Shown here: piece after piece, positions 1,613 to 63,449 of the stretch | How the letters are laid out: the number at the start of each line of letters is the position of its first letter | Position numbering within the stretch: position 1 is the first letter of the stretch | Assembly: GCA_947457935.1 (NCBI GenBank) | Contig: CANGXP010000005.1 | Span: 2,511 to 66,510 of the forward strand | Length of the DNA stretch: 64,000 nucleotides | Direction of reading: 5' to 3' | DNA from: Alphaproteobacteria bacterium | GTDB lineage: Bacteria > Pseudomonadota > Alphaproteobacteria > JAJTHO01 > CANGXP01 | Made by a program: the position numbers and the translations under genes | The notes under the pieces: model-generated | Database searches by the model: none | Told to the model about the DNA's origin: nothing | Seen by the model: only the letters and a program-made list of their open reading frames with translations

Positions 1613-3418
1613 TCAAGCCGCCAACCCTTCCCCCCAGCCCCGTGTCTCCGCCGTGGGCAGCATCACATCCTCAATAAACACTTGCGGCGTGGGGGTTTTG
1701 CCCCATGTATCCAGTTTTAACGTGCCCGCAATATGCAACGGCTTACCTTGGTTGGAGAGCAACACCTGCCCGATATTCTGGTCAAGGGCACGGAATGCCA
1801 TCGCTTTCACGGTAAAAGCGCGGTCTTTATCTCCCAACACACACCGCACATGATTATCCCCCACAACGGCGGCTTGGCGAATAATCACCTCAGGCAACAA
1901 AAACCGTGGTTGCGGATTGCCCGCCCCAAACGGCGCGAGTTGCTCTAATTTTGTGATAAAGTCCGCTGTGATGCCCTTAATGTGCATTGTGCCATCTAAA
2001 TGCAACAGCGGCGTAATATTCTGTGCAGCAATAAGGCGTTGCACCTGTTCTTCTAAGTAGTCTGTGAAGACAGGCAGCATGCTTGCATGGATACTAAACC
2101 CCGCCGCCATTTCATGCCCACCACCAGCCAACAACATCTCTTGTTGCCGTGCGGCAATCACTAAATTGCCCAAATGCACGCCACTCACCGAACGACATGA
2201 TGCCTTACCAATCCCTTTTTCATCAAAGGCTATTACGCAGGTTGGCAGGTGATACCTTTCTTTAAGACGTCCCGCTACAATGCCAATCACCCCTGCGTGC
2301 CACCCCTGCCCTGACACAATCAACACACTTCTTTTACTCGCCGCGTCATTGGTAAGAGCCTCTGCCTGCACCAATGCTTCACTTAAAACAGTATATTCAA
2401 TGGCTTTTCGCTCTTTGTTAAACTCTTCTAACAGCGTTGCAATGTGCTGTGCTTCGGCAGGATTTTTCGTACTCAGCAATTTTGCGCCTAAATCCGATTG
2501 CCCCACACGCCCCCCTGCATTGATCCGTGGACCCAACACAAACCCTAAATGATACGCCGTCGGCACTTCCTTAACACCCGCCGTATCCATCAGCGTTTTC
2601 AGCCCCAAATTTTGCCGATTTGCCATCACTTTTAAGCCTTGCGCCACAAAAGCTCGATTCAGCGTGGTCAGACTCACCACGTCACACACGGTGCCTAGCG
2701 CCACAATATCGAGTAAATTAAGCAAGTTAGGCTTTTTTGTTTGTGTAAAAAACCCCCGCGCTTCCAAAATGGTGTTGGTCGCAATCAGCAACAAAAACAC
2801 CACGCCCACGGCCGCTAAGTGCTTATAATCACTGTCTTCATCAAACCGATTCGGGTTCACCACCGCCACCGCCGCTGGCATGGTTAACTCACTCGCATGG
2901 TGATCAATCACCAGCACTTCTAACCCACAGTTTTTGGCGGCCTCAAGGGGGGCAAATGCCGTGGTGCCACAATCAACGGTAATCACCAAGTCAACGCCTT
3001 CTGCCCGCAGCTTTTCTAGTGCAGGCGCATTAGGACCATACCCCTCTTTCATGCGGTCAGGCACATACAATTGAATGACTTGCCCTAACATCTGAAAGTA
3101 ATTTAATAGCAATGCAGAAGAAGTTGCGCCATCTACATCATAATCACCCCACACTGCCACCGATTGCTTGCTGATAATTGCTTCAGCTAATCTATTCGCT
3201 GCCGCTTGCATATCTTTGAGATGCAATGGATTTGGCAGCGCATCTTTGAGACGCGGCTCTAAAAACCCCTCCGCCTCTTCTAAGCCAATATTGCGCGCCG
3301 CGAGCAGCTGCCCCAAAACCACAGGCAGTTGAAATCGTTGACTCAACGCTAACGCAAGGCGTTCATCATGCGGTTTAAAGCGCCACGTTCTAGCAGAGGC
3401 TGAAAGCATTATAATCAT
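1613..3418 (-). CDS. recJ: Single-stranded-DNA-specific exonuclease RecJ
   Basis: 601-aa protein with DHH and DHHA1 family sequence features (VITVDCGTTA, DHH). The alternative start at 3409 (MLSAS...) is more likely. Either start lies inside element copy 2. Confidence 0.9.
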   Translation of the reverse strand: MIIMLSASARTWRFKPHDERLALALSQRFQLPVVLGQLLAARNIGLEEAEGFLEPRLKDALPNPLHLKDMQAAANRLAEAIISKQSVAVWGDYDVDGATSSALLLNYFQMLGQVIQLYVPDRMKEGYGPNAPALEKLRAEGVDLVITVDCGTTAFAPLEAAKNCGLEVLVIDHHASELTMPAAVAVVNPNRFDEDSDYKHLAAVGVVFLLLIATNTILEARGFFTQTKKPNLLNLLDIVALGTVCDVVSLTTLNRAFVAQGLKVMANRQNLGLKTLMDTAGVKEVPTAYHLGFVLGPRINAGGRVGQSDLGAKLLSTKNPAEAQHIATLLEEFNKERKAIEYTVLSEALVQAEALTNDAASKRSVLIVSGQGWHAGVIGIVAGRLKERYHLPTCVIAFDEKGIGKASCRSVSGVHLGNLVIAARQQEMLLAGGGHEMAAGFSIHASMLPVFTDYLEEQVQRLIAAQNITPLLHLDGTMHIKGITADFITKLEQLAPFGAGNPQPRFLLPEVIIRQAAVVGDNHVRCVLGDKDRAFTVKAMAFRALDQNIGQVLLSNQGKPLHIAGTLKLDTWGKTPTPQVFIEDVMLPTAETRGWGEGLAA

Positions 3419-3539
3419 TCCACTTTAAAATTACCCCTGCCTGCAAACTTCCTTTAGCGTCTCTTCTGTACGAATAGGTACATTTCGCGCCGCTGCAGTC
3501 GTTTTCGGCTATGGGTAATTTCAAATTGAAACGACTATA
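3410..3539 (-). mobile_element. Palindromic MITE-like element copy 2
   Basis: TA-TAATCATTCCACTTTAAAATTACCC ... GGGTAATTTCAAATTGAAACGACTA-TA. The core is reverse-complemented relative to copy 1. It overlaps the 5' end and start codon of recJ. Confidence 0.6.
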
Positions 3540-3702
3540 CGAGAGGCGGGAGAATAATGTTAAAATTACAAAACCCTTGTCTTTACTGTGCATATTGCGT
3601 ATGGAAACGCAACGTAAAAGGTAACGGAGCCTAGAGGATGGCACTTTTCTCTCGCCTCTCGCCTCCCGCCTTTTGCCTCCCGCCTCATTCAGGAATAAAG
3701 CC

Positions 3703-7203: not shown

Positions 7204-7887
7204 ATGAACGACATCCTCAAAGAAGCCCAATCAGACCTCACCCAAGAAAAACTGCGCGTTTTCTTCCAAAAACACACGGGCAAATTGGTAGGCGGTGTGG
7301 TGGTAGTATTGCTCTCAGCGGGGGCAGCAAGCTGGATGCACAGCGAAAAACAAGAAAAACTCGAAGCCCTCAATGTGCAATATCATGCCGCCGAAAAATT
7401 CATTGCGGAAAGCAGCCTTGCCGAAGCCAGCAACACGCTGGATGCACTGGCAGATCAAGAAGGAAAACACGGTTTTGGTACACTCGCTCGTTTCCGCAAG
7501 GCATCCTTATTGCTGATACAAAACAGAGAAGAAGAAGCGCAAAAAATTTACGCAAAACTCGCTAAAGACGGCAGCATTTCCCCTTCTTTACGCGAGTACG
7601 CGAGTATTTTATACGCCTACGGTGCGCTGAACACACAAACGGGCATTGATGCCGATACAACCAAACAACTCACAAAAATCATTGACGATAAAGGGGCGTG
7701 GAAATTTGCCGCGCGTGAGATTCTCGCGCTGCAAAGTCTGCAAGACCTGAAGAAAATCTCTAACCCTGATGAAAAGCGCGTTCAAGAAACTGCGGAGAAA
7801 TTCCAAAGTCTCACAGAAGAAGCCGAAATCCCCAGTGCAATGAAACAACGCGCCGAAGCCATCCTCACTGTGCTCCCCCAACTATAG
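7204..7887 (+). CDS. YfgM-like membrane-anchored TPR protein (UPF0070)
   Basis: N-terminal TM helix followed by an alpha-helical TPR-like body. Conserved position upstream of bamB. Its TAG stop lies inside the terminus of element copy 3. Confidence 0.6.
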   Translation: MNDILKEAQSDLTQEKLRVFFQKHTGKLVGGVVVVLLSAGAASWMHSEKQEKLEALNVQYHAAEKFIAESSLAEASNTLDALADQEGKHGFGTLARFRKASLLLIQNREEEAQKIYAKLAKDGSISPSLREYASILYAYGALNTQTGIDADTTKQLTKIIDDKGAWKFAAREILALQSLQDLKKISNPDEKRVQETAEKFQSLTEEAEIPSAMKQRAEAILTVLPQL

Positions 7888-8011
7888 TCATTCCACTTTA
7901 AAATTCCTCATGCCTGCAAACTTTCCTTAGCGTCCCTCATGTACAAAAGGTACACTTCGTGCCGCTGCGGTCGCTTTCGGCTACGGGGAATTTTAAATTG
8001 AAACGACTATA
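7883..8011 (-). mobile_element. Palindromic MITE-like element copy 3
   Basis: TA-TAGTCATTCCACTTTAAAATTCC ... GGAATTTTAAATTGAAACGACTA-TA with clean TA duplication. It fills the whole yfgM-bamB intergenic region. Confidence 0.65.
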
Positions 8012-8034
8012 CAACCAAAAAATAAGGGGCTTTT

Positions 8035-11799: not shown

Positions 11800-12969
11800 A
11801 TGAACATTCACGAGTATCAAGCCAAAGAAATCCTCAAAAAATACGGTGTAAATGTCCCCCGTGGCGGCGTTGCATACACCGAACAAGAGGCGGTAAAAGT
11901 GGCGAATGACCTTGGCGGGCCCGTCTATGTTGTCAAAGCGCAAATTCATGCGGGCGGGCGTGGTAAGGGCGGCGGCGTAAAAGTTGTTAAATCCGTGGAT
12001 GAAGTTAAAGCACAATTCAAAGCCATGATGGGGATGCAACTTATCACCCACCAAACAGGGCCAGAAGGCAAGCAAGTAAAACGCCTGTATGTTGAAGACG
12101 GGTGCGACATTAAGCGCGAACTCTACCTCTCCATGCTCACCGACCGCGATACCTCGCGCATCACCATTCTCTGCTCTACCGAAGGCGGGATGGACATTGA
12201 GGAAGTGGCAGCGCACACCCCAGAAAAAATCATCAGCTTTTCTGTTGATCCTGCGGCGGGCTTACAAGCCTACCACGGTCGCAAAGTCGCCTATGCCTTG
12301 GGCTTAGAGGGCGACCAAGTTAAATCCTGCATCAAATTCGTTAACGCGCTCTACAAAGCGTTCATCGACATGGATGCCAGCATCGTTGAGATTAACCCCC
12401 TCGTTGTCACCGGCAAAGGTGATGTCATTGCCCTTGATGCCAAAATGAACTTTGACGATAACGCCCTCTTCCGTCACCCTGACGTGGAAGCGTTGCGCGA
12501 CGAAGACGAAGAAGACCCGATGGAATTAGAAGCCATTAAGCACAGCCTCAATTACATCAAACTCGATGGAAAAATTGGCTGTATGGTTAATGGGGCGGGG
12601 CTTGCCATGGCAACCATGGACATTATCAAGCTCTATGGTTCAGAGCCTGCAAACTTCCTCGATGTGGGCGGCGGCGCAACCAAAGAGCGCGTAACGACAG
12701 CGTTTAAGTTGATTCTCTCTGACCCGAACGTCGAAGGCATCTTGGTGAACATCTTCGGCGGTATTATGCGCTGCGATATTATTGCCGATGGCATCATTGC
12801 AGCCGCAAAAGAAGTCAGTCTCCATGTGCCCCTCGTTGTGCGCTTGGAAGGCACCAACGTAGATTTAGGCAAGAAAATTCTGGCGGAAAGCGGCTTGCCG
12901 ATTGTCTCTGCTGATAACCTTGCCGATGCAGCGGAAAAAATCGTGAAAGCGGTGAAAGCGGCGGCGTAG
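11800..12969 (+). CDS. sucC: Succinyl-CoA ligase (ADP-forming) beta subunit
   Basis: Starts [17 protein letters not shown], the canonical SucC N-terminus. ATP-grasp and CoA-ligase motifs follow. Confidence 0.95.
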
Positions 12970-12977
12970 GGGGTTTT

Positions 12978-13217
12978 ATGCCAGATATTATTCTTCATGA
13001 TGTTCCTGATCATGTATTTGCGCTTCATCTGCAGCAAGCAGAACAAGAAGGCGTTGATATTGAGCAGCATATTCAAAGGATATTAGCTCAAAAACTTCCC
13101 TCAAAACGACTTGAAACGATTACCCAAATAGAAGCGTTGCGGCGTGAAATAAAAACTGAATACGGTGTTCTTGACGATAGCACGCCTCTTATTCGTGAAT
13201 TTAGAGATACACTCTAA
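12978..13217 (+). CDS. Ribbon-helix-helix antitoxin (VapB/FitA-like)
   Basis: 79-aa protein with Arc/MetJ-type N-terminus (IILHDVPDHVFALHLQQAEQEGVDIEQHIQRIL). TAATG overlap with the downstream PIN gene. Confidence 0.6.
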   Translation: MPDIILHDVPDHVFALHLQQAEQEGVDIEQHIQRILAQKLPSKRLETITQIEALRREIKTEYGVLDDSTPLIREFRDTL

Positions 13218-13636
13218 TGGTTGTTGTTGACGCAAGCGTTGCCGTAAAATGGTTTTTAGAAGAACAGGATAGCGACCGTGTTGCCCACCTGCTTTATGAA
13301 CAACAGTCTTTATGCGCCCCACAAATCATTTTCTTGGAAGTTTTTTCGGCTTTTTGTAAAAGAGCACGCGTTGGCTCTCTTAAAAAAGCAACTGCCAAAA
13401 AATTATGCGATCGTTGGTTTCTGGGTGGGCAAGATATTTTTTCGGAAATTTTCCCACCAGCTTTATTTATACAACAAGCCTATACAATAGCCTTAGAATA
13501 CAACCATGCCTTACCAGACTGTTTTTATTTAGCAGTTGCCTTGCAAGAACATCTCCCTTTATTAACGTTTGATGTCCGCCTCGCCAATCTTGCAAAGACT
13601 CTTAATATTCCAACCCCACTACAACACATTAATTAG
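13217..13636 (+). CDS. vapC: PIN-domain toxin VapC
   Basis: N-terminal VVDASVAVKWFLEE with conserved acidic residues of the PIN fold. Translationally coupled to the upstream RHH gene. Confidence 0.7.
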   Translation: MVVVDASVAVKWFLEEQDSDRVAHLLYEQQSLCAPQIIFLEVFSAFCKRARVGSLKKATAKKLCDRWFLGGQDIFSEIFPPALFIQQAYTIALEYNHALPDCFYLAVALQEHLPLLTFDVRLANLAKTLNIPTPLQHIN

Positions 13637-13651: not shown

Positions 13652-14542
13652 ATGTCCGTCCTCGTCAATAAAAACACAAAAGTCATCTGCCAAGGCTTCA
13701 CAGGTGCCCAAGGCACGTTCCACAGTGAGCAAGCCATTGCCTACGGCACCAAAATGGTGGGGGGCGTCACCCCAGGGAAAGGTGGCTCGCTCCACCTCAA
13801 TTTGCCCGTGTTTGACACCGTTGAGCAAGCCAAAGCTAAAACAGGCTGCAACGCCTCTGTCATCTATGTACCGCCTCCCTTCGCCGCAGATGCAATCTTA
13901 GAAGCCATTGATGCAGAAATCGAACTCATCGTGTGCATCACAGAAGGCATTCCTGTGCTCGACATGGTCAAAGTTAAGCGTGCGTTGAGTGGCACCAACA
14001 GCCGCCTCATTGGGCCTAACTGCCCAGGGATTATTACACCGGGTGAGTGCAAAATCGGCATTATGCCGGGACACATCCACAAGCGTGGCAAAATCGGCAT
14101 TGTGTCTCGTTCTGGTACACTCACCTACGAAGCAGTGGCACAAACCACCGCAACAGGCTTAGGACAAACCACCTGCATCGGCATCGGTGGTGACCCTGTG
14201 AACGGTACCAACTTCATTGATGCGATTGACCTCTTCCTCCGTGACCCCGAAACCGAGGGTATCATCATGATTGGCGAAATAGGCGGCGCAGCAGAAGAAG
14301 ACGCGGCGCAATTCATCAAAGACAGCAAAATCAAAAAGCCCACCGTTGGCTTTATCGCAGGTGTTACCGCCCCTGCTGGCAAACGCATGGGACACGCAGG
14401 CGCAATCATCTCTGGCGGCAAAGGCGATGCAGCAAGCAAAATGAACGCGATGCGCGAAGCGGGTATTTTTGTCTCCGCCTCCCCTGCTGAATTGGGTAAA
14501 ACCATGCTGGCGGTGATGGAAGGCAAGCTGAAGGCGGCGTAG
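13652..14542 (+). CDS. sucD: Succinyl-CoA ligase alpha subunit
   Basis: Starts [27 protein letters not shown] and carries the CoA-binding and His-phosphorylation loop motifs. Confidence 0.95.
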
Positions 14543-14797: not shown

Positions 14798-15121
14798 TTA
14801 ATCAAACAAATCGAAGATAGAGCGAACGCGGCTTTTCTTGCCATACTTGTGTTTGTAGTAATCATCGTAATCGTCATCATCCCGATAGTGGCGCGGGTGT
14901 GTTGGTTGCTGATAGTGTTGTTGGGGGCGGGTTTGCTGATACGCAACATACTCTTGTCTGTCCGCAACAACGGCAGATTGCACCGCGTTCAACAGTTTTT
15001 CTAATTCGCCTTTATCTAACCACACACCGCCTGAAACAGGGCAACGGTCAATCTCAATCCCATCGCGGATAATTTGCTGCATGGGGGTTTGCCCATCAAT
15101 CGGGCTTACAAGTAACGGCAT
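14798..15121 (-). CDS. Zinc-ribbon (TFIIB-type) domain protein, degenerate, with D/Y-rich tail
   Basis: IEIDRCPVSGGVWLDKGELEKLL matches the second half of the zf-TFIIB ribbon. The first CxxC pair is absent. The C-terminus is low-complexity (DDDDYDDYYKHKYGKK). Confidence 0.45.
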   Translation of the reverse strand: MPLLVSPIDGQTPMQQIIRDGIEIDRCPVSGGVWLDKGELEKLLNAVQSAVVADRQEYVAYQQTRPQQHYQQPTHPRHYRDDDDYDDYYKHKYGKKSRVRSIFDLFD

Positions 15122-15180: not shown

Positions 15181-15468
15181 TTAATGCAATACAACTTTTT
15201 TAGGAGGCGCTTGTTCTTCCCGTGTTTCCAGCATCACACGATGCTCTTGCAGCAGCTCAAACGCTTCTTTATCAAAGCACAGCATGGCATGGGTTGTATC
15301 GCGCTGTTGGTAAAAACGAATGCCCAATTCAGAGAGAGCTTGGCAAATATACGTCACATCTTCCTGCGGCAAGCTGTGCATATCCATTTTCAGCGTATGG
15401 ACACTTAATGGCAAGGGTTTGTATTTTGCGATAAAGTCAATGTTGTGAGTGAGGGTTGAGGGTTGCAT
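15181..15468 (-). CDS. hypothetical small protein
   Basis: 95-aa ORF divergent from glyQS with no recognisable motif. Confidence 0.3.
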   Translation of the reverse strand: MQPSTLTHNIDFIAKYKPLPLSVHTLKMDMHSLPQEDVTYICQALSELGIRFYQQRDTTHAMLCFDKEAFELLQEHRVMLETREEQAPPKKVVLH

Positions 15469-15621
15469 TTGTTACGATCCTGTTAACTATTTTTTCATTA
15501 TGAGTAATTTTATTACAAAAAGCAAGATTATTTTGTTTGTAAGTTATACGTCGTGAGGGTTAAAAAAGTATTAGCGATGCAGCATAAAAAATCGATATGA
15601 TTATAAAAAAAGATCTCTCTG

Positions 15622-16124
15622 TTGACCTGAAACGCTTGTTTTGCAACGCTTTCAGCCGATTTTTTATCGAAAAATAAAATTGCAAGTCACTGATATATAA
15701 TAATATTTTTTGTAAGTAGTAGTGTACGAAAAAATAATAATTTTGCAGGATGACCTGAAAGGTGCTTTTTTCCTTGTTCTTAGCCGATTTTCTGCAAAAA
15801 TTATTATCGCTAAGCCATTGACAAATAATATTATTCTCTGCGATGTGTTTTGTAAGAAAAATACCTTGTTATGCAAAATGGCTTGAAAGCCGCCTTTTTC
15901 CTTGCTTTCAGCCGATAATGTGTAAAAAGCCACATACGCAACACATTGATAAACAACATTATTTTTTAATTGCACTCGCTATAAAAAATATTTCCGTCAT
16001 CAAGTTGCCTTAAGAAGGGCTTTTTTCTTGCCTTTCAGCCGATTTTCCCACCTCAATTTTTGCGTTTTTCATCAACACAAGTACTGTTGCGGAAGTGCCT
16101 ACAGTTTGCTACCGTGTGCGGATT
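15622..16124 (+). repeat. Tandem array of four degenerate ~127-bp direct repeats upstream of glyQS
   Basis: Units start at 15622, 15751, 15879 and 16005. Each begins TTGACCTGAAAG/TGGCTTGAAAGC/TTGCCTTAAGAAGG followed by a T-rich stretch and CTTTCAGCCGAT. Units 1-3 also share an internal ATTGA(C/T)AAA(T/C)AA(T/C)ATTATT segment. Confidence 0.6.
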
Positions 16125-19100
16125 ATGACACAGCCCCTCTCGTTCCAAAACATCATTCTCACCCTCCAGAAATTCTGGGGAAACCAAGGCTGTGCCTTGC
16201 TTCAGCCATATGATGTGGAGATGGGCGCGGGCACCTTTCACCCCGCAACAACCCTAAGATCTTTGGGCGAACAGCCGTGGCGCGCTGCCTATCCCCAACC
16301 CTGCCGCCGCCCTACCGATGGCCGCTATGGCGAGAACCCTAACCGCCTTCAGCACTACTATCAGTTCCAAGTTATCATAAAACCCTCGCCTGCCAACATC
16401 CAAGAATTGTATCTAGAAAGCCTGAAAGCCTTAGGAATAGACATTTCTAAGCACGATATTCGGTTTGTGGAAGACGATTGGGAAAGTCCTACTTTGGGGG
16501 CAGCGGGTCTTGGTTGGGAGGTGTGGTGCGATGGCATGGAAGTCACGCAATTCACCTATTTCCAGCAGGTTGGCGGCTTTGATTGCGCGCCCGTTTCTGC
16601 CGAGATTACCTACGGATTAGAACGCCTTGCCATGTATATTCAAGGCGTGGAGAATGTGTATGATTTGATTTACGTTGAAGGGGATAGGCACGAGGCACGA
16701 GGCACGAGGGAAGAAATGATTTCCTCTTCTCGCGCCTCGTGCCTCGAGCCTCTTACCTATGGAAACGTCTTCCTCCGCAACGAACAAGAATTTTCCGCCT
16801 ATAATTTTGAGCACGCAACCACCGAAAAGTTATTCCAACACTTTGCTGATGCCGAGCTAGAATGCCAGCACTTGCTCGCACAAAACCTTGCCCTGCCTGC
16901 CTACGACCAGTGCATCAAAGCCAGTCATACCTTTAATTTGCTGGATGCACGGCGGGTGATTAGTGTTTCCGAACGCGCCAGCTACATCGGGCGGGTACGC
17001 GCTCTTGCCAAGGGATGTTGCGAGGCATGGCTTGCGAAAGCGGCAGCAAGCAACAATCTTCAAGGTGCAGCACAAGAAAAAACTTTCTCCAATCCCCAAA
17101 CTCCAAACCTGAAAACCGAAAACAGCTTTTTATTGGAACTCCTTACCGAAGAAATCCCCGCACGGATGCAGCAAGCGGCACGGGCAGATTTATTACGGCT
17201 ATTCACGCAAAAGCTGGAAAAGCGCGGTATTACAGGGTTTAACGCAACAAGTTGTGTCACGCCACGCCGCCTTGCGTTGTTGGTGGAGGGCTTACCTGCC
17301 GCACAACCCGCCACCACGGAGGAACGGAAGGGCCCCAAAGTGGGCGCACCACAACAGGCGTTGGATGGCTTCTTGCGGAGTGCGGGTATTGAGGCAAGTA
17401 CGCTAAAACCTGTTCACAATCTCGCTAGACTGCAAGCGAAAATTGATGTTCCCGAGAACCAGCGCGCAGTGTATCCTTCATACATGAGCACTGGAAGCGC
17501 AGAGAACATCAATTTGCAGCAAGGTATAGTAGAGAGTGGGGATAGGTTTTTAGAACAGCGTGATGACGGCAAAGGCAACCTCTATTATTACGCGACGTTA
17601 CGCACGCCAGAAACCCCGCTTTCTGGGGTTCTTCCCGTTGTTATCAGTGAAATTTTGCTAGAATTTGCATGGGCAAAATCCATGCGTTGGGGCAATGGCG
17701 CGTTCCGTTGGGTGCGTCCGTTGCAAAATATTTTGGCGGTGCTGAATGGCGTACCGCTCGCGGGCGGCTTTGACCTTGGCAATCATCTTGAGAACTACCC
17801 TGCTGGCTATGTGACCGAATGGCATAGCGGGCAAACTGTGTTGGTGTTTAATAACACAACGGTGGGGCATCGCGTTCATGCGCCTGAAGCATTGCAAATC
17901 AACACGCCGCAAGAATATTTGAGCGCACTGCGTAATGCCTCTGTTGAGCCATGCGTTGAGGCACGCAAAAAGAAAATTATTGAGCACGCAACATTGCTTG
18001 CACCCAAGGGTTTAACCATTGATTTTAATGAGAAATTATTGGAAGAAGTGGCGGGCTTAAATGAGCATCCCGTGCCGTTATTGGGGCAAATTGACGCGAA
18101 ATTTATGACCGTGCCGCCTGAAATTCTCACCACAAGCATGGCGAGTCACCAGCGGTATTTCGCGTGTTATGATGCCGCTGGCACACTCCAGCCCTATTTT
18201 ATCGCGGTTGCCAACCAAAACAGTGATGATGCGGGTCTCGCCATTATTCAAGGCAATGAAAAAGTGCTCCGCGCCCGCCTGTTTGACGCGGCGTTTTTCT
18301 GGGAAAACGATAAAAAGCAAGCTGTTGAACGGGGTATGGAGAGCTTCCTTGAGCCGCTGAAGAACGTGGTGTTTCATCAGGGTTTGGGGACGGTGTATGA
18401 CAAGGCGATGCGGATTGCTGCCCTTGCTATGTCCTTCGCTGACGTTGTAGGGGGCGATGCATCTCACATACACAAGGCAGCCCTCCTTGCCAAAGCAGAC
18501 CTTTCCAGCGGGGTTGTGGGGGAGTTCCCCGAATTACAGGGGATTATGGGGAGTTATCTAGCAACGGCAGCGGGGCTAGATAAAAATATCGCTCTTGCTA
18601 TTCGTAAGCATTATCAGCCGATTGGTGATAGCCCTGTGCCTGCCAACCCTGTGAGTGTGGCGATTGCCTTAGCCGATAAAATGGACACGCTGGTGGCGTT
18701 TTTTGCGATTGGCGAAAAGCCTACGGGTTCAAAAGACCCGTTCGCGTTGCGCCGTGCCGCGATTGGCATTATTCGGTTGATTGTGGAAAATAAACTTCCT
18801 TTAAGCATTAAAAATTTAGTTCTGTGGGGATGCATTGAGTTTCAGCATCAGCATATAAAACCAATAGATGGCAGCGTTGTAGACGATTTAACAAACTTCC
18901 TTAAAGATCGCTTCGTGGTCTACCTCCGCGATACCCACACTCTCCGCCCCGACATCATTCACGCTGTTTTGGCTGCACAACCACAGTTTGGTGACCTTGT
19001 TGCCCATAAACAGGCGATTGAGCAAACACAAGCGTTTCTTGCTTTGAACCCGAATGCGCCTGCCTTAGTGGCGGGGTATAAACGGGCGGTGAATATCCTA

Positions 19101-19406
19101 AACATTGAAGAGAAGAAAGATAAACGCCGCTATGACGGCATTGTTGACGCGGCATTGCTGCAAGACGCTGCGGAAAAGGCATTGGATGCAGCGTTAAACG
19201 CTGTGACCACAGCGCTTGCAACAACAGCGGACTACACCGCAATGCTGGAGCAACTCGCAACCCTGCGCCCCGCCATTGACGCGTTTTTCACCGAGGTGTT
19301 GGTGAATAGCGAGGATGTGAGCGTGCGGGAAAATCGCTTGTTTATGTTGCACTCGTTCCGCGCACTCGTGCAGCGCGTGGCGGATTTTGGCGGGGTGGAG
19401 GGGTAA
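16125..19406 (+). CDS. glyQS: Fused glycyl-tRNA synthetase alpha+beta subunits
   Basis: The N-terminal ~300 aa align to GlyQ ([36 protein letters not shown]). After a short linker the sequence continues as GlyS ([16 protein letters not shown] ... [16 protein letters not shown]). It is a single uninterrupted ORF. Confidence 0.9.
16688..16751. repeat. Imperfect ~64-bp palindrome embedded in-frame in the glyQ portion
   Basis: GGCACGAGGCACGAGGCACGAGGGAAGAAA-tgatttc-CTCTTCTCGCGCCTCGTGCCTCGAGCC. It encodes about 18 extra residues ([18 protein letters not shown]) relative to E. coli GlyQ between VYDL and YG(D/N)VF. Confidence 0.6.
17400..17550 (+). mobile_element. Decayed in-frame copy of the 129-bp palindromic element inside the glyS portion
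   Basis: CAGCGCGCAGTGTATCCTTCATACATGAGCA...AATTTGCAGCAAGGTATAGTAGAGAGTGGGGAT aligns to the element core (CAGCGGCGCGAAGTGTACCTCTTCGTACATGAGAGA...AGTTTGCAGGCATGGGTAATTTTAAAGTGGAATG). GlyS is about 43 aa longer than E. coli GlyS at exactly this position. Confidence 0.45.
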
Positions 19407-42327: not shown

Positions 42328-43773
42328 ATGATGCACTATACTTTACTATTGGGAAAAAACATTCAACCATGGCAGTGCCATACAGTTGCGCATGCACGCG
42401 ATATTTATAACAGCATTTATAACACCCCCACGCCAAACATTGCGCCCCCAAAATGGCAAGCGATGCTTGAGAATACTTTATTTAAATATCGTGCTCCACA
42501 CATTCCCTCTATTCCCCTTAAAAAGACAGCCATACCGCCGCAACAGAGCGGTGTTATTGATTTAACAGGCATCTCCACAACGTTACCGCACAAAAACACC
42601 CTGTTGAAGCCATTTTTTAATGGATCGTTTGATGCACAAGCGCTGCACACCAGCCTTGTGCAAGGCATAGCGCCCACTATTGGCTGGGCAATGCGTGATG
42701 CGACCGATAGCCCGTGGTATGTGCTTATTGAAGCGGACATTGCAGTAAGAGAACCCTTGGCATTGCAACCCGCACTCTCGCTCTGCGGGGAACGCTTGCA
42801 ACAGCTGTTCACACGCGGGATACAGAAGCTAAATACAGGCTATTTGCCCACCATCCCTTTCATACCGCAAGAACAGCCTCTATCTTTTTCCTACACAACG
42901 CTCGCGCTCAAACAGCTTAAACTCAAACTGCCGCATATCGTGCACAAACTTTTTTTGCGGAGAAACCATTGGGAAATGGCAATTGCGCGGCGCGATGCAA
43001 TCACGCCTGATGCATGGCAACGTCTGATTACTCCCCGTATGCACTTTGAAGCAGATCCGTTTTTGTGGGAAGAAAACGGCAAGACGTATCTTTTTTATGA
43101 ACAAGCGGTGTACCCATGCGGCAAAGGGCGCATCGCCTATCGTGTGGTTGCCGATGATGGCACGGCAAGCGAACCCGTGGTCGCCTTAGAACGCCCCTAT
43201 CACTTTTCTTATCCGCATTTATTTCGCTATAATGATACAACCCATATACTTCCTGAAAGCCGCGCTGGTAGACTAGAAATCTATAAAAGTGTTGTATTTC
43301 CTGATCATTGGGAATTAGCACACACCTTTTTTGAAGGCGTGAATGCGGCTGATTCTACCCTACATTACGATGGGCAACGCTGGTGGTTGTTTACCAACAT
43401 TGCGACAGGAGATGTCCCTAATTGGGACGAGCTGTTTTTATTTTATGCTGATAGCCCGTTTGGCGAGTGGACACCCCATCCGCAAAATCCCATCAAAGCC
43501 AGCGCAGCGGGGGCACGCATGGCGGGAAATTTGTTTAAGCAAAACGGCAACCTCATCCGCGTTGGACAAGATTGTCGTGGGGATTATGGTTTACAAGTGT
43601 TATTTTTTCGGGTGGATACCCTCACCCCTGAACAGTATGCAGAAACAGCTATCCCCTGCCCTATTACGCTGCCTAAAACGTACAAGATGGATGGCAAGAA
43701 GTTCCGCTGGCACAGCTATAGCCAATCGTCAAAATTTGTGGCAATTGATTATAATCGGGTGAAAAGGCGGTGA
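42328..43773 (+). CDS. hypothetical protein with C-terminal five-bladed beta-propeller glycoside-hydrolase-like domain
   Basis: The C-terminal ~250 aa (FEADPFLWEENGKTYLFYEQ ... RWWLFTNIATG ... NLIRVGQDCRGDYG) resemble GH43/GH130-type propellers. The N-terminal ~230 aa have no recognisable family. Confidence 0.4.
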   Translation: MMHYTLLLGKNIQPWQCHTVAHARDIYNSIYNTPTPNIAPPKWQAMLENTLFKYRAPHIPSIPLKKTAIPPQQSGVIDLTGISTTLPHKNTLLKPFFNGSFDAQALHTSLVQGIAPTIGWAMRDATDSPWYVLIEADIAVREPLALQPALSLCGERLQQLFTRGIQKLNTGYLPTIPFIPQEQPLSFSYTTLALKQLKLKLPHIVHKLFLRRNHWEMAIARRDAITPDAWQRLITPRMHFEADPFLWEENGKTYLFYEQAVYPCGKGRIAYRVVADDGTASEPVVALERPYHFSYPHLFRYNDTTHILPESRAGRLEIYKSVVFPDHWELAHTFFEGVNAADSTLHYDGQRWWLFTNIATGDVPNWDELFLFYADSPFGEWTPHPQNPIKASAAGARMAGNLFKQNGNLIRVGQDCRGDYGLQVLFFRVDTLTPEQYAETAIPCPITLPKTYKMDGKKFRWHSYSQSSKFVAIDYNRVKRR

Positions 43774-43777
43774 GGAA

Positions 43778-43812
43778 TATAGTCATTCCACTTTTAAATT
43801 GAAATGACTATA
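43778..43812. mobile_element. Core-less mini copy of the palindromic element (termini only)
   Basis: TA-TAGTCATTCCACTTTTAAATTGAAATGACTA-TA. The two terminal repeats are joined directly, with no core and intact TA flanks. Confidence 0.55.
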
Positions 43813-63318: not shown

Positions 63319-63449
63319 TATAGTTATTCCAAAACAAAATTACCCGCTGGCGAAAACAACCGCAACCGAGCGAAAGTGTACATCTTAGTACATGAGCGAG
63401 GTTAAGGGAAGTTTGCAGTCGTGGGTAACTTTGTTTTGGAGTGACTATC
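63319..63449 (+). mobile_element. Palindromic MITE-like element copy 5 (divergent)
   Basis: TA-TAGTTATTCCAAAACAAAATTACCC ... GGGTAACTTTGTTTTGGAGTGACTA-TC. Core homologous to copy 1. It ends one base before the recA stop codon. Confidence 0.55.

What the first reader, a model, noticed from the sequence alone, without database searches (positions are those of the whole stretch)
15622..16124. Four tandem ~127-bp repeats forming the whole glyQS upstream region
Units of 129, 128, 126 and about 120 bp each start with a TTGACC/TTGCCT-like hexamer. This is followed by CTGAAAG, then a T-rich stretch, then CTTTCAGCCGAT. The CTGAAAG/CTTTCAG arms are inverted repeats able to form a hairpin in each unit. 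Three units also share ATTGAYAAAYAAYATTATT. The unit length is close to that of the 129-bp mobile element but the sequences are unrelated. It could be a reiterated promoter/operator, a small-RNA array, or a tandemly amplified different MITE.
Basis: seen in the sequence. Interest (0 to 1): 0.6.

Follow-up and report, generated by a model that had tools for sequence, protein, structure and literature searches.

The report
Conserved four-unit non-coding repeat upstream of glyQS
A 430-bp stretch between an orphan regulator-like gene and the glycyl-tRNA synthetase gene consists of a 128-bp non-coding unit repeated three and a half times; three related uncultured bacteria keep it almost unchanged, so it is probably functional, most likely a phased set of protein-binding sites, but its role is not proven.

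Summary
The repeat is real. A 47-nt core occurs at 15618, 15746, 15874 and 16001 (spacing 128/128/127). Three homologous 81-nt B segments lie between the cores, giving (A-B)x3 + A. The fourth "unit" is only a core.

The array does not fill the whole intergenic region. 15469-15617 carries the promoter and operator of a divergent orphan gene (orf95). 16048-16124 carries the glyQS promoter, which an array-less relative also has.

Two related metagenomic lineages have the same four cores at the same spacing. There are no indels across 430 bp. Variable columns are 22-32%, against 46% at four-fold synonymous sites. The duplication is therefore old, stable and under selection.

- It is non-coding.
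- It has no Rfam match.
- It is unrelated to the resident MITE.
- No further copies were found.

Conservation is of sequence blocks: YTGAAAG, an invariant YAGCCGAT, and an IHF consensus at unit positions 66-78 in 7 of 9 B segments. Stems are often broken and the small hairpins sit in different registers. Only unit 1 has a conserved promoter-like site.

Best reading (about 0.4): a phased cis-acting protein-binding array between two divergent promoters. Main rival (about 0.3): plus-strand regulatory RNA(s). Function is not shown.

The parts
15618..15664 (+). Core A1. Most divergent copy: TTGACCTGAAAC...CTTTCAGCCGAT, with an inner stem CTTG/CAA(C).
15746..15792 (+). Core A2: ATGACCTGAAAGG-T run-CCTTGTTCTTAGCCGAT. 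The long hairpin is poor here.
15874..15920 (+). Core A3: ATGGCTTGAAAGCC-T run-CCTTGCTTTCAGCCGAT. Best imperfect palindrome of the four.
16001..16047 (+). Core A4, the last copy. It is followed by unrelated sequence.
15665..15745 (+). Segment B1, homologous to B2 and B3.
   Evidence: z 5.0 and 3.4
15793..15873 (+). Segment B2.
15921..16000 (+). Segment B3.
15683..15695 (-). IHF-consensus site (WATCARNNNNTTR) in B1: TATCAGTGACTTG, unit positions 66-78.
15811..15823 (-). Homologous site in B2: TGTCAATGGCTTA. One mismatch here; exact in both relatives.
15939..15951 (-). IHF-consensus site in B3: TATCAATGTGTTG.
15651..15680 (+). Candidate promoter in unit 1 only: TTCAGC-N18-TAAAAT. The hexamers and spacing are kept in all three lineages; the spacer has one change in L098/L099.
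16087..16115 (+). Context: probable glyQS promoter TTGCGG-N17-TACCGT (TGn-extended -10). Hexamers conserved, spacer variable. Also present in the array-less relative L082.
15497..15525 (-). Context: probable orf95 promoter TTGCTT-N17-CATAAT. The palindrome GTAATTTTATTAC (15504-15516) lies in its spacer.
15181..15468 (-). Context: orf95, a 95-aa orphan gene divergent from the array. It is present wherever the array is present.
16125..19406 (+). Context: fused glyQS, 1093 aa.

Best explanation
**Proposed mechanism.** The array is a clade-specific, vertically inherited, non-coding cis-acting DNA module. It arose by an old tandem triplication of a 128-bp unit and sits between two divergent promoters that are each self-sufficient (orf95 and glyQS).

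Each unit carries three elements at fixed positions:
- an imperfect inverted repeat, AT(G/C)RSYTGAAA ... TTTCAGCCGAT, around a T tract;
- an invariant YAGCCGAT;
- an IHF-type bending site 48 bp further on.

The 128-bp period is about 12 helical turns, so the cores lie on roughly the same face of the helix. Bound factors plus IHF-like bends could therefore stack the four cores into one looped nucleoprotein complex. That complex would modulate or insulate the two divergent promoters.

**Shown:** the repeat architecture, its orthology in three lineages, purifying selection, the strict spacing, the absence of coding signal, and the conserved consensus matches.

**Inferred:** that proteins (IHF and an unknown core-binding factor, possibly the orf95 product) bind there, and that the output is promoter control.
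For: 1. The same four cores at the same spacing occur in L094/L095 and in L098+L099. Orthologous cores are 79-91% identical (U4 in L094 versus L098: 68%); paralogous cores are 47-77%.
2. Variable-column fractions are 0.22 (cores) and 0.32 (B1-B3), against 0.46 at four-fold sites of glyQS. Pairwise four-fold identity is 0.77 and 0.55-0.59, against about 0.88 and 0.78 for the spacer.
3. There are zero gap columns in 15618-16047 among the three lineages, although the DNA is full of homopolymer runs.
4. Constraint falls in discrete blocks (unit positions 9-16, 33-56, 73-88, 113-120). The stretches between them vary at about the neutral rate.
5. The IHF consensus WATCARNNNNTTR is at unit positions 66-78 on the minus strand in 7 of 9 B segments; the other two have one mismatch. 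The specified positions are kept and the NNNN varies.
6. Consensus folds of the three-lineage alignments show about as many broken pairs as consistent ones on either strand. The small hairpins of units 2, 3 and 4 are in three different registers. Both strands of 15687-16030 fold equally (z -2.1).
7. There is no codon-position bias in the ORFs that stay open.
8. Both flanking genes have compact, conserved promoters of their own outside the array.
Against: - No binding was or can be tested here. The IHF match is a consensus match in AT-rich DNA (13 matches in the window against 6.2 expected).
- The half-sites of the core palindrome are about 28 bp apart centre to centre, which is unusual for a simple dimeric operator.
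- About 60% of each B segment is constrained, more than isolated binding sites would need.
- The long inverted repeat tolerates G-T more than A-C: 84% paired read as plus-strand RNA, against 75% for the minus strand and 69% Watson-Crick only. Pair 12-36 shows GC, AT and GT. This leans towards RNA.
- The relative with 76%-identical GlyQS, and five distant orf95 homologues, all do without an array. Neither neighbour therefore needs it.
Confidence: 0.4

Rival explanations
1. Plus-strand regulatory RNA. There are two versions. In the first, three paralogous small RNAs are each made of a B segment and end at the hairpin plus T run of the next core. In the second, one RNA of about 340 nt starts at the unit-1 promoter (TSS near 15687) and ends at the terminator-like hairpin of core 4 (16007-16026), with the cores as repeated hairpins that carry pyrimidine-rich loops.
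For: - The terminator-like scan finds hairpin plus T run at 15879-15892 and 16007-16020.
- A promoter-like site TTCAGC-N18-TAAAAT in unit 1 keeps its hexamers and spacing in all three lineages.
- G-U tolerance favours the plus strand (84% against 75%).
- The covariation score is 0.286 against 0.223 in shuffles, with 20 of 500 shuffles as high.
- There is a compensatory T-A to C-G change in the B3 hairpin ATGTGT/ACACAT and an A-T/C-G exchange in the unit-1 inner stem.
- The extra 430 bp lies between two promoters that do not need it, a common home for sRNA genes.
- Tandem sRNA arrays are known, for example NsiR1 with 12 copies, each with its own promoter (PMC4030482).
Against: - Units 2-4 have no conserved promoter.
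- The small hairpins have 4-5 pairs, lie in different registers, and their T runs decay in L098/L099 (AGTTTT, TTGTT).
- Broken pairs are as frequent as consistent ones in consensus folds.
- There is no strand asymmetry in folding energy.
- The most invariant letters (CCG of GCCGAT; TG.C at the 5' side) face invariant C-C and G-G mismatches, so they are not stem positions.
- No Rfam family matches.
Confidence: 0.3
2. Reiterated promoters: each core is a promoter for glyQS, or for an alternative sigma factor such as sigma-28, whose -10 element is GCCGATAA. The result would be four tandem start sites.
For: GCCGAT is invariant in all 12 cores and reads GCCGATAA in unit 3 of the window. Each core begins with a TTGACC/ATGACC-like hexamer.
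Against: - TAAA at the sigma-28 -35 position (N15) is absent in 12 of 12 cores.
- The sigma-70 scan finds no conserved -35/-10 pair in units 2-4.
- TTGACC is followed at 17 nt by AACGCT-type hexamers only.
- The glyQS promoter that is conserved beyond the clade lies at 16087-16115, outside the array.
Confidence: 0.07
3. Functionless relic of an old tandem amplification, or of a selfish element such as a MITE, that merely persists.
For: The array is absent from the nearest sampled relative outside the clade. The genome carries other repeats and insertions.
Against: - It evolves more slowly than four-fold synonymous sites.
- It has no indels in 430 bp.
- It shows block-wise constraint.
- Copy number is fixed at four.
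- It is unrelated to the resident MITE and has no other copies.
Confidence: 0.08

Closest known systems
NsiR1 tandem sRNA array of heterocystous cyanobacteria (PMC4030482)
   Same: Both are direct repeats of a short non-coding unit next to a protein gene, kept across related genomes. Both have a conserved core and a hairpin plus T run in each unit.
   Different: Each NsiR1 copy has its own promoter and gives a 60-nt RNA. Here only unit 1 has a conserved promoter-like site, the hairpins are weak and out of register, and transcription is unknown. There is no sequence relation.
UAS-IHF-promoter architecture of sigma-54 promoters and lambda-attP-type intasomes (own knowledge)
   Same: Inverted-repeat protein sites are combined with an IHF bending site at fixed distance in AT-rich DNA upstream of promoters.
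   Different: There are four identical modules at 128-bp spacing rather than one. No -24/-12 element is present: the GG dinucleotide is present in only 3 of 12 cores. No recombinase or enhancer-binding protein gene lies nearby.
E. coli BIME-1/RIP elements: REP palindromes flanking an IHF site (own knowledge)
   Same: Imperfect palindromes are associated with an IHF consensus site in intergenic DNA.
   Different: REP/BIME elements are dispersed in many copies, with alternating orientation, mostly at 3' ends of operons. Here there is a single locus, all cores are direct, and the array lies between divergent promoters.
Intergenic tandem repeats (VNTR) of Ehrlichia and Wolbachia (own knowledge)
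   Same: The unit length is about 100-150 bp, the repeats are intergenic, and the host is an alphaproteobacterium.
   Different: VNTR units are nearly identical and vary in copy number. Here the units are 47-77% alike, copy number is fixed, and the sequence is under constraint.
Tandem T-box leaders of aminoacyl-tRNA synthetase genes, e.g. B. subtilis thrZ (own knowledge)
   Same: Repeated hairpin plus T-run modules lie upstream of an aminoacyl-tRNA synthetase gene.
   Different: There is no T-box or other Rfam match. Units of 128 nt are too short for a T-box. The conserved glyQS promoter lies downstream of the array, so the array need not be in the mRNA.

Membership tests
sigma-28 (FliA) promoter | -10 element GCCGATAA | tested here: inconclusive
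   GCCGAT is present in 12 of 12 cores. The following AA is present in 1 of 12; the others read TT, GA or AC.
sigma-28 (FliA) promoter | -35 element TAAA about 15 nt upstream of the -10 element | tested here: not met
   Absent in 12 of 12 cores. A T run occupies that position.
Tandem sRNA gene array (NsiR1-like) | Each repeat has its own promoter | tested here: not met
   A conserved sigma-70-like site is found only in unit 1. Alternative sigma factors were not testable.
Tandem sRNA gene array (NsiR1-like) | Each repeat ends in an intrinsic terminator | tested here: inconclusive
   Two of four units pass a simple scan. Stems have 4-5 pairs and lie in different registers, and the T runs are eroded in L098/L099.
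Tandem sRNA gene array (NsiR1-like) | Discrete transcripts are detected | not testable with these tools
   No expression data were available.
MITE | Many dispersed copies with terminal inverted repeats and target-site duplications | tested here: not met
   There are no copies outside the array in the window or in 1 Mb of loci. The units are unrelated to the resident MITE.
VNTR / recent tandem amplification | Near-identical units with copy number varying between strains | tested here: not met
   Paralogous cores are 47-77% identical. There are four cores in all three lineages.
CRISPR array | Near-identical repeats separated by unique spacers | tested here: not met
   The repeats are 64-72% alike, and the 'spacers' B1-B3 are homologous to each other.
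Known RNA family (T-box, glycine riboswitch, alphaproteobacterial sRNAs) | Match to an Rfam covariance model | tested here: not met
   Nothing in 15469-16124 apart from two weak chance-level rows (E 1.5 and 2.3, far below gathering scores).
IHF binding site | Consensus WATCARNNNNTTR with an AT-rich 5' flank | tested here: met
   Exact in 7 of 9 orthologous and paralogous sites at unit positions 66-78. The N positions vary.
IHF binding site | Binding and bending by IHF | not testable with these tools
   Needs EMSA or footprinting.
Replication origin / iteron array | DnaA boxes or short iterons next to a Rep gene | tested here: not met
   No TTATCCACA-like box (up to 1 mismatch) lies in 15400-16200. 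There is no similarity to plasmids or phages.
Protein-coding repeat | Third-codon-position bias and an excess of synonymous changes | tested here: not met
   Substitutions are spread evenly over codon positions. Synonymous to non-synonymous counts are about 5:18 in every frame.

The most novel reading that the evidence does not exclude
The array could be a previously undescribed regulatory device. One version is a family of repeated hairpin RNAs with pyrimidine-rich loops, made from one locus next to an aminoacyl-tRNA synthetase gene. The other is a four-module, IHF-bent 'stacked' nucleoprotein switch. In that version the module is bound by the product of the adjacent orphan gene orf95, whose family appears to be an unrecognised class of small autoregulated DNA-binding proteins, and it couples expression of that gene to glyQS.
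Probability: 0.2. Interest if true: 0.65.

Novelty: new variant of a known kind. Interest (0 to 1): 0.42.

Why it matters
Old, diverged tandem repeats in bacterial intergenic DNA that are nevertheless kept under selection are uncommon. When understood, they have turned out to be sRNA gene arrays or organised protein-binding platforms. This array has a very regular anatomy: four cores, three IHF-type sites, and no indels across lineages. It sits in front of an essential translation gene in a poorly sampled alphaproteobacterial lineage. That gives a small, well-defined object for testing how repeated cis modules act on divergent promoters, or for finding a new sRNA family. It also points to a tiny uncharacterised protein family (orf95) with a conserved promoter palindrome.

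Tried and rejected
- **Tandem Repeats Finder** does not report the array.
- **Rfam** (E-value mode) gives nothing meaningful.
- **Genome-contig scan with GlyQ** returned only distant alphaproteobacterial glyQ loci, none with the array.
- **Degenerate core pattern against metagenome contigs** gave nine single hits that look like chance matches in unrelated DNA.
- **Plasmid and phage blastn** gave no match.
- **Replication origin** was rejected: no DnaA boxes and no skew turn.
- **Decayed tRNA array** was rejected: ARAGORN finds nothing.
- **Coding** was rejected. A 104-codon minus-strand ORF and a 56-codon plus-strand ORF stay partly open in relatives but show no codon-position bias.
- **Sigma-54** was rejected: the -24 GG is present in only 3 of 12 cores.
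- **Sigma-28** was rejected: there is no -35 TAAA.
- **Small hairpin as a conserved terminator** was rejected: three different registers and eroding T runs.
- **Mini-ORF NTG-NCN-TRA** is present in 11 of 12 cores, but it has no Shine-Dalgarno sequence and one copy reads through. It is treated as a by-product of the ATGNCYTGAAAG motif.
- **Core as a copy of the orf95 operator** is weak. The half-sites TGAAAG and TGTAAT differ and their spacing differs.
- **A-tract periodicity** shows only harmonics of 128 (32, 11.75 and 9 bp) and is not informative on its own.

Full report
**1. What is there**

The window is chromosomal DNA of about 47% G+C. Around the finding the gene order is:
- sucC (11800-12969);
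- a PIN-domain gene (13217-13636);
- sucD (13652-14542);
- two minus-strand small genes, a TFIIB-type zinc-ribbon protein (14798-15121) and a 95-aa protein without Pfam match, orf95 (15181-15468);
- a fused glyQS (ATG at 16125, stop at 19406, 1093 aa).

The spacer 15469-16124 is 656 bp and 33% G+C.

The repeat finder finds four in-register copies of a 47-nt core at 15618, 15746, 15874 and 16001. Spacing is 128, 128, 127 and identity to the reference copy is 64-72%. Pairwise local alignments of the cores exceed shuffles by z 5.8-11.9.

The segments between cores (B1 15665-15745, B2 15793-15873, B3 15921-16000) are also related to one another (z 3.4-5.0). The sequence after core 4 (16048-16124) and the sequence before core 1 (15469-15617) are related to nothing in the array. 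The array is therefore (A-B)x3 + A and spans 15618-16047. Tandem Repeats Finder misses it because the units are too diverged.

**2. Is it unique, and is it conserved?**

A profile of the cores finds no other copy in the 64-kb window or in about 1 Mb of fetched loci. The units are unrelated to the ~130-bp MITE family that occurs four to five times in this window. Rfam, plasmid and phage searches are negative.

The exact contig occurs in a metagenome assembly. GlyQS has only one close relative cluster (76% identity). There, glyQS lies next to ribonucleotide reductase behind a 262-bp spacer without any core.

orf95 has three close homologue clusters (94, 87 and 82% identity). Contigs with enough flank carry the same orf95/glyQS spacer with four cores at the same spacing. 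These are L094/L095, and L098 plus L099, which are identical over 487 nt of overlap and were merged.

Orthologous cores are mostly 79-91% identical and paralogous ones 47-77%. The duplication is therefore older than the split of these lineages, and copy number has not changed.

**3. Selection**

| Comparison | Four-fold synonymous sites | Spacer |
|---|---|---|
| window vs L094 | 0.77 identical | about 0.88 identical |
| window vs L098/L099 | 0.55-0.59 identical | about 0.78 identical |

The fraction of alignment columns that vary among the three lineages is:

| Region | Variable fraction |
|---|---|
| cores | 0.22 |
| B1-B3 | 0.32 |
| orf95-proximal part | 0.21 |
| glyQS-proximal part | 0.36 |
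| four-fold sites of glyQS | 0.46 |

Constraint is block-wise. Unit positions 9-16 (YTGAAAG), 33-56 (YAGCCGAT plus about 12 nt), 73-88 (the B box) and 113-120 (AAAAATA) hardly change. Positions 57-72 and 97-112 change at about the neutral rate. There is not a single gap column in 15618-16047, although the DNA is rich in homopolymer runs.

ORFs that stay open in all three lineages show no third-position bias. The region is non-coding.

**4. What lies at the edges**

A scan for sigma-70-like sites kept in all three lineages gives:
- on the minus strand, TTGCTT-N17-CATAAT (15497-15525) in front of orf95;
- on the plus strand, TTGCGG-N17-TACCGT (16087-16115) in front of glyQS;
- on the plus strand, TTCAGC-N18-TAAAAT (15651-15680) in unit 1;
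- three weaker sites: TAGCGA-N18-TATGAT (-10 ending at 15601), TTGACC-N17-AACGCT (-10 ending at 15650), and on the minus strand CTTACA-N17-TAATAT (at 15828, inside unit 2).

The glyQS site has conserved hexamers, a TGn-extended -10 and a variable spacer. It aligns with the upstream region of the array-less relative L082, where homology stops exactly upstream of the -35. The glyQS promoter is therefore outside the array and older than it.

The orf95 promoter has the palindrome GTAATTTTATTAC in its spacer. A profile search of 1.84 billion representatives finds only five distant homologues of orf95 (E 1e-13 to 5e-6). Four of the five have the same TTGA/TTGC -35 followed by TTTTTG(T/A)AAT-N3-ATT(A/T)C in front of the gene. 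None has an array.

This suggests that orf95 encodes a small autoregulated DNA-binding protein. It also shows that neither neighbour needs the array for basal expression. The AlphaFold model of orf95 is confident (pLDDT 84; topology alpha-beta-alpha-beta-beta-alpha) but has only weak PDB matches, all to nucleic-acid-binding folds.

**5. DNA element or RNA?**

Across the 12 cores the invariant letters are T6 G7 C9 T11 A15 T23 T25 T33 T35 and AGCCGAT (37-43).

Pair 12-36 occurs as GC, AU and GU. The covariation score exceeds most but not all shuffles (20 of 500 as high), which is not decisive.

Unit 2 does not form the hairpin. The invariant CCG and TG.C face each other as constant mismatches.

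The 4-5-bp hairpins followed by T runs in units 2, 3 and 4 are in three different registers. Their T runs erode in L098/L099.

Consensus folding of the three-lineage alignment, unit by unit and on both strands, gives about as many broken as consistent pairs. There are isolated compensatory changes:
- the B3 hairpin ATGTGT/ACACAT, T-A to C-G;
- the unit-1 inner stem, A-T/C-G.

Both strands of 15687-16030 fold with the same z of -2.1.

The B box, read on the minus strand, is the IHF consensus WATCARNNNNTTR at unit positions 66-78 in 7 of 9 copies; the other two have one mismatch. The specified letters are conserved and the N letters vary.

The GCCGAT box resembles the sigma-28 -10 element, but the -35 TAAA is absent in 12 of 12 cores. 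A sigma-54 -24 GG is present in only 3 of 12.

**6. Interpretation**

The data show an old, stable, selected, non-coding module inserted between two self-sufficient divergent promoters. Four observations fit a DNA-level, protein-binding role best:
- block-wise sequence conservation;
- strict spacing, with 128 bp being about 12 helical turns;
- conserved IHF-type sites at a fixed offset from each core;
- lack of a per-unit promoter or terminator.

I therefore favour a phased array of composite binding sites that, with IHF-type bending, forms a looped or stacked complex acting on P_orf95 and/or P_glyQS (confidence about 0.4). Binding and regulatory output are inferred, not shown.

The main rival is plus-strand RNA: three sRNAs, or one repeat-containing RNA from the unit-1 promoter to the core-4 hairpin (about 0.3). 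G-U tolerance, a few compensatory changes and the precedent of tandem sRNA arrays (NsiR1; PMC4030482) support it.

Reiterated promoters, a functionless relic and a MITE are unlikely, for the reasons given above.

**7. Verdict**

- **Observation:** partly confirmed (real repeat, corrected extent and anatomy).
partly supported (operator or sRNA still open; MITE and reiterated promoter not supported).
- **Novelty:** a new variant of known kinds of intergenic repeat arrays, restricted to a small uncultured alphaproteobacterial clade. The lineage assignment is tentative: zinc-ribbon homologues are named Holosporales and Thalassospira, and GlyQ is closest to alphaproteobacteria.
- **Interest:** moderate. 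The anatomy is unusually regular and testable, but the function is unresolved.

Noticed in passing
15181-15468 (-) and 15497-15525; loci L101:2940-2975, L102:2030-2065, L103:205-245, L104:525-560: orf95 belongs to a tiny family with no Pfam match: five distant homologues among 1.84 billion representatives. Four of those five distant members, plus the window's own clade, have the palindrome G(T/A)AAT-N3-ATT(A/T)C between the -35 and -10 of the gene's promoter, with symmetric T/A changes in both half-sites. This looks like an unrecognised small autoregulated DNA-binding protein.
   Followed up: partly
16679-16758 (inside glyQS): An imperfect inverted repeat of heptads, (AGGCACG)x3.4 facing CTCGAGC-like copies, encodes an in-frame insertion of about 26 aa in the GlyQ domain. 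The insertion is absent from Magnetococcales fused GlyQS and differs strongly between the window and L094. It recalls in-frame palindromic-element insertions.
   Followed up: partly
657-788, 3410-3541, 7882-8012, 63320-63448, partial 43765-43800: A ~130-bp MITE-like family with internal inverted repeats (up to 92% between copies, in both orientations), unrelated to the array.
   Followed up: partly
12978-13636; L094:4900-5190: A PIN-domain gene with a small upstream ORF (probable toxin-antitoxin pair) is inserted between sucC and sucD. In the close relative L094 a GIY-YIG gene occupies that position instead. The sucC-sucD junction is an insertion hotspot.
   Followed up: no
core starts: 15622-15630, 15750-15758, 15878-15886, 16005-16013: Eleven of the 12 cores in three lineages begin with a start codon, one sense codon and a stop codon (e.g. 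ATG ACC TGA, ATG GCT TGA, TTG CCT TAA). TGA/TAA exchanges keep the stop. There is no Shine-Dalgarno sequence, so this is probably a by-product of the motif.
   Followed up: partly
L098:550-565 versus L099:128-143 (units 4 and 3 of the second relative): In L098/L099 the first 16 nt of core 4 (TAAGATGGCTTGAAAG) are identical to those of core 3, unlike in the window and L094. This suggests local gene conversion between units.
   Followed up: no
15584-15594 and 15657-15667: A perfect 11-nt inverted repeat, ATAAAAAATCG / CGATTTTTTAT, brackets core 1. Both arms lie in blocks that are invariant in all three lineages.
   Followed up: no
15847-15863: B2 contains TTTTGTAAGAAAAATAC, which matches 15 of 17 positions of the orf95 promoter palindrome region TTTTGTAATAAAATTAC. 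It is less similar in the relatives (13-14 of 17). It is a possible weak secondary operator.
   Followed up: partly
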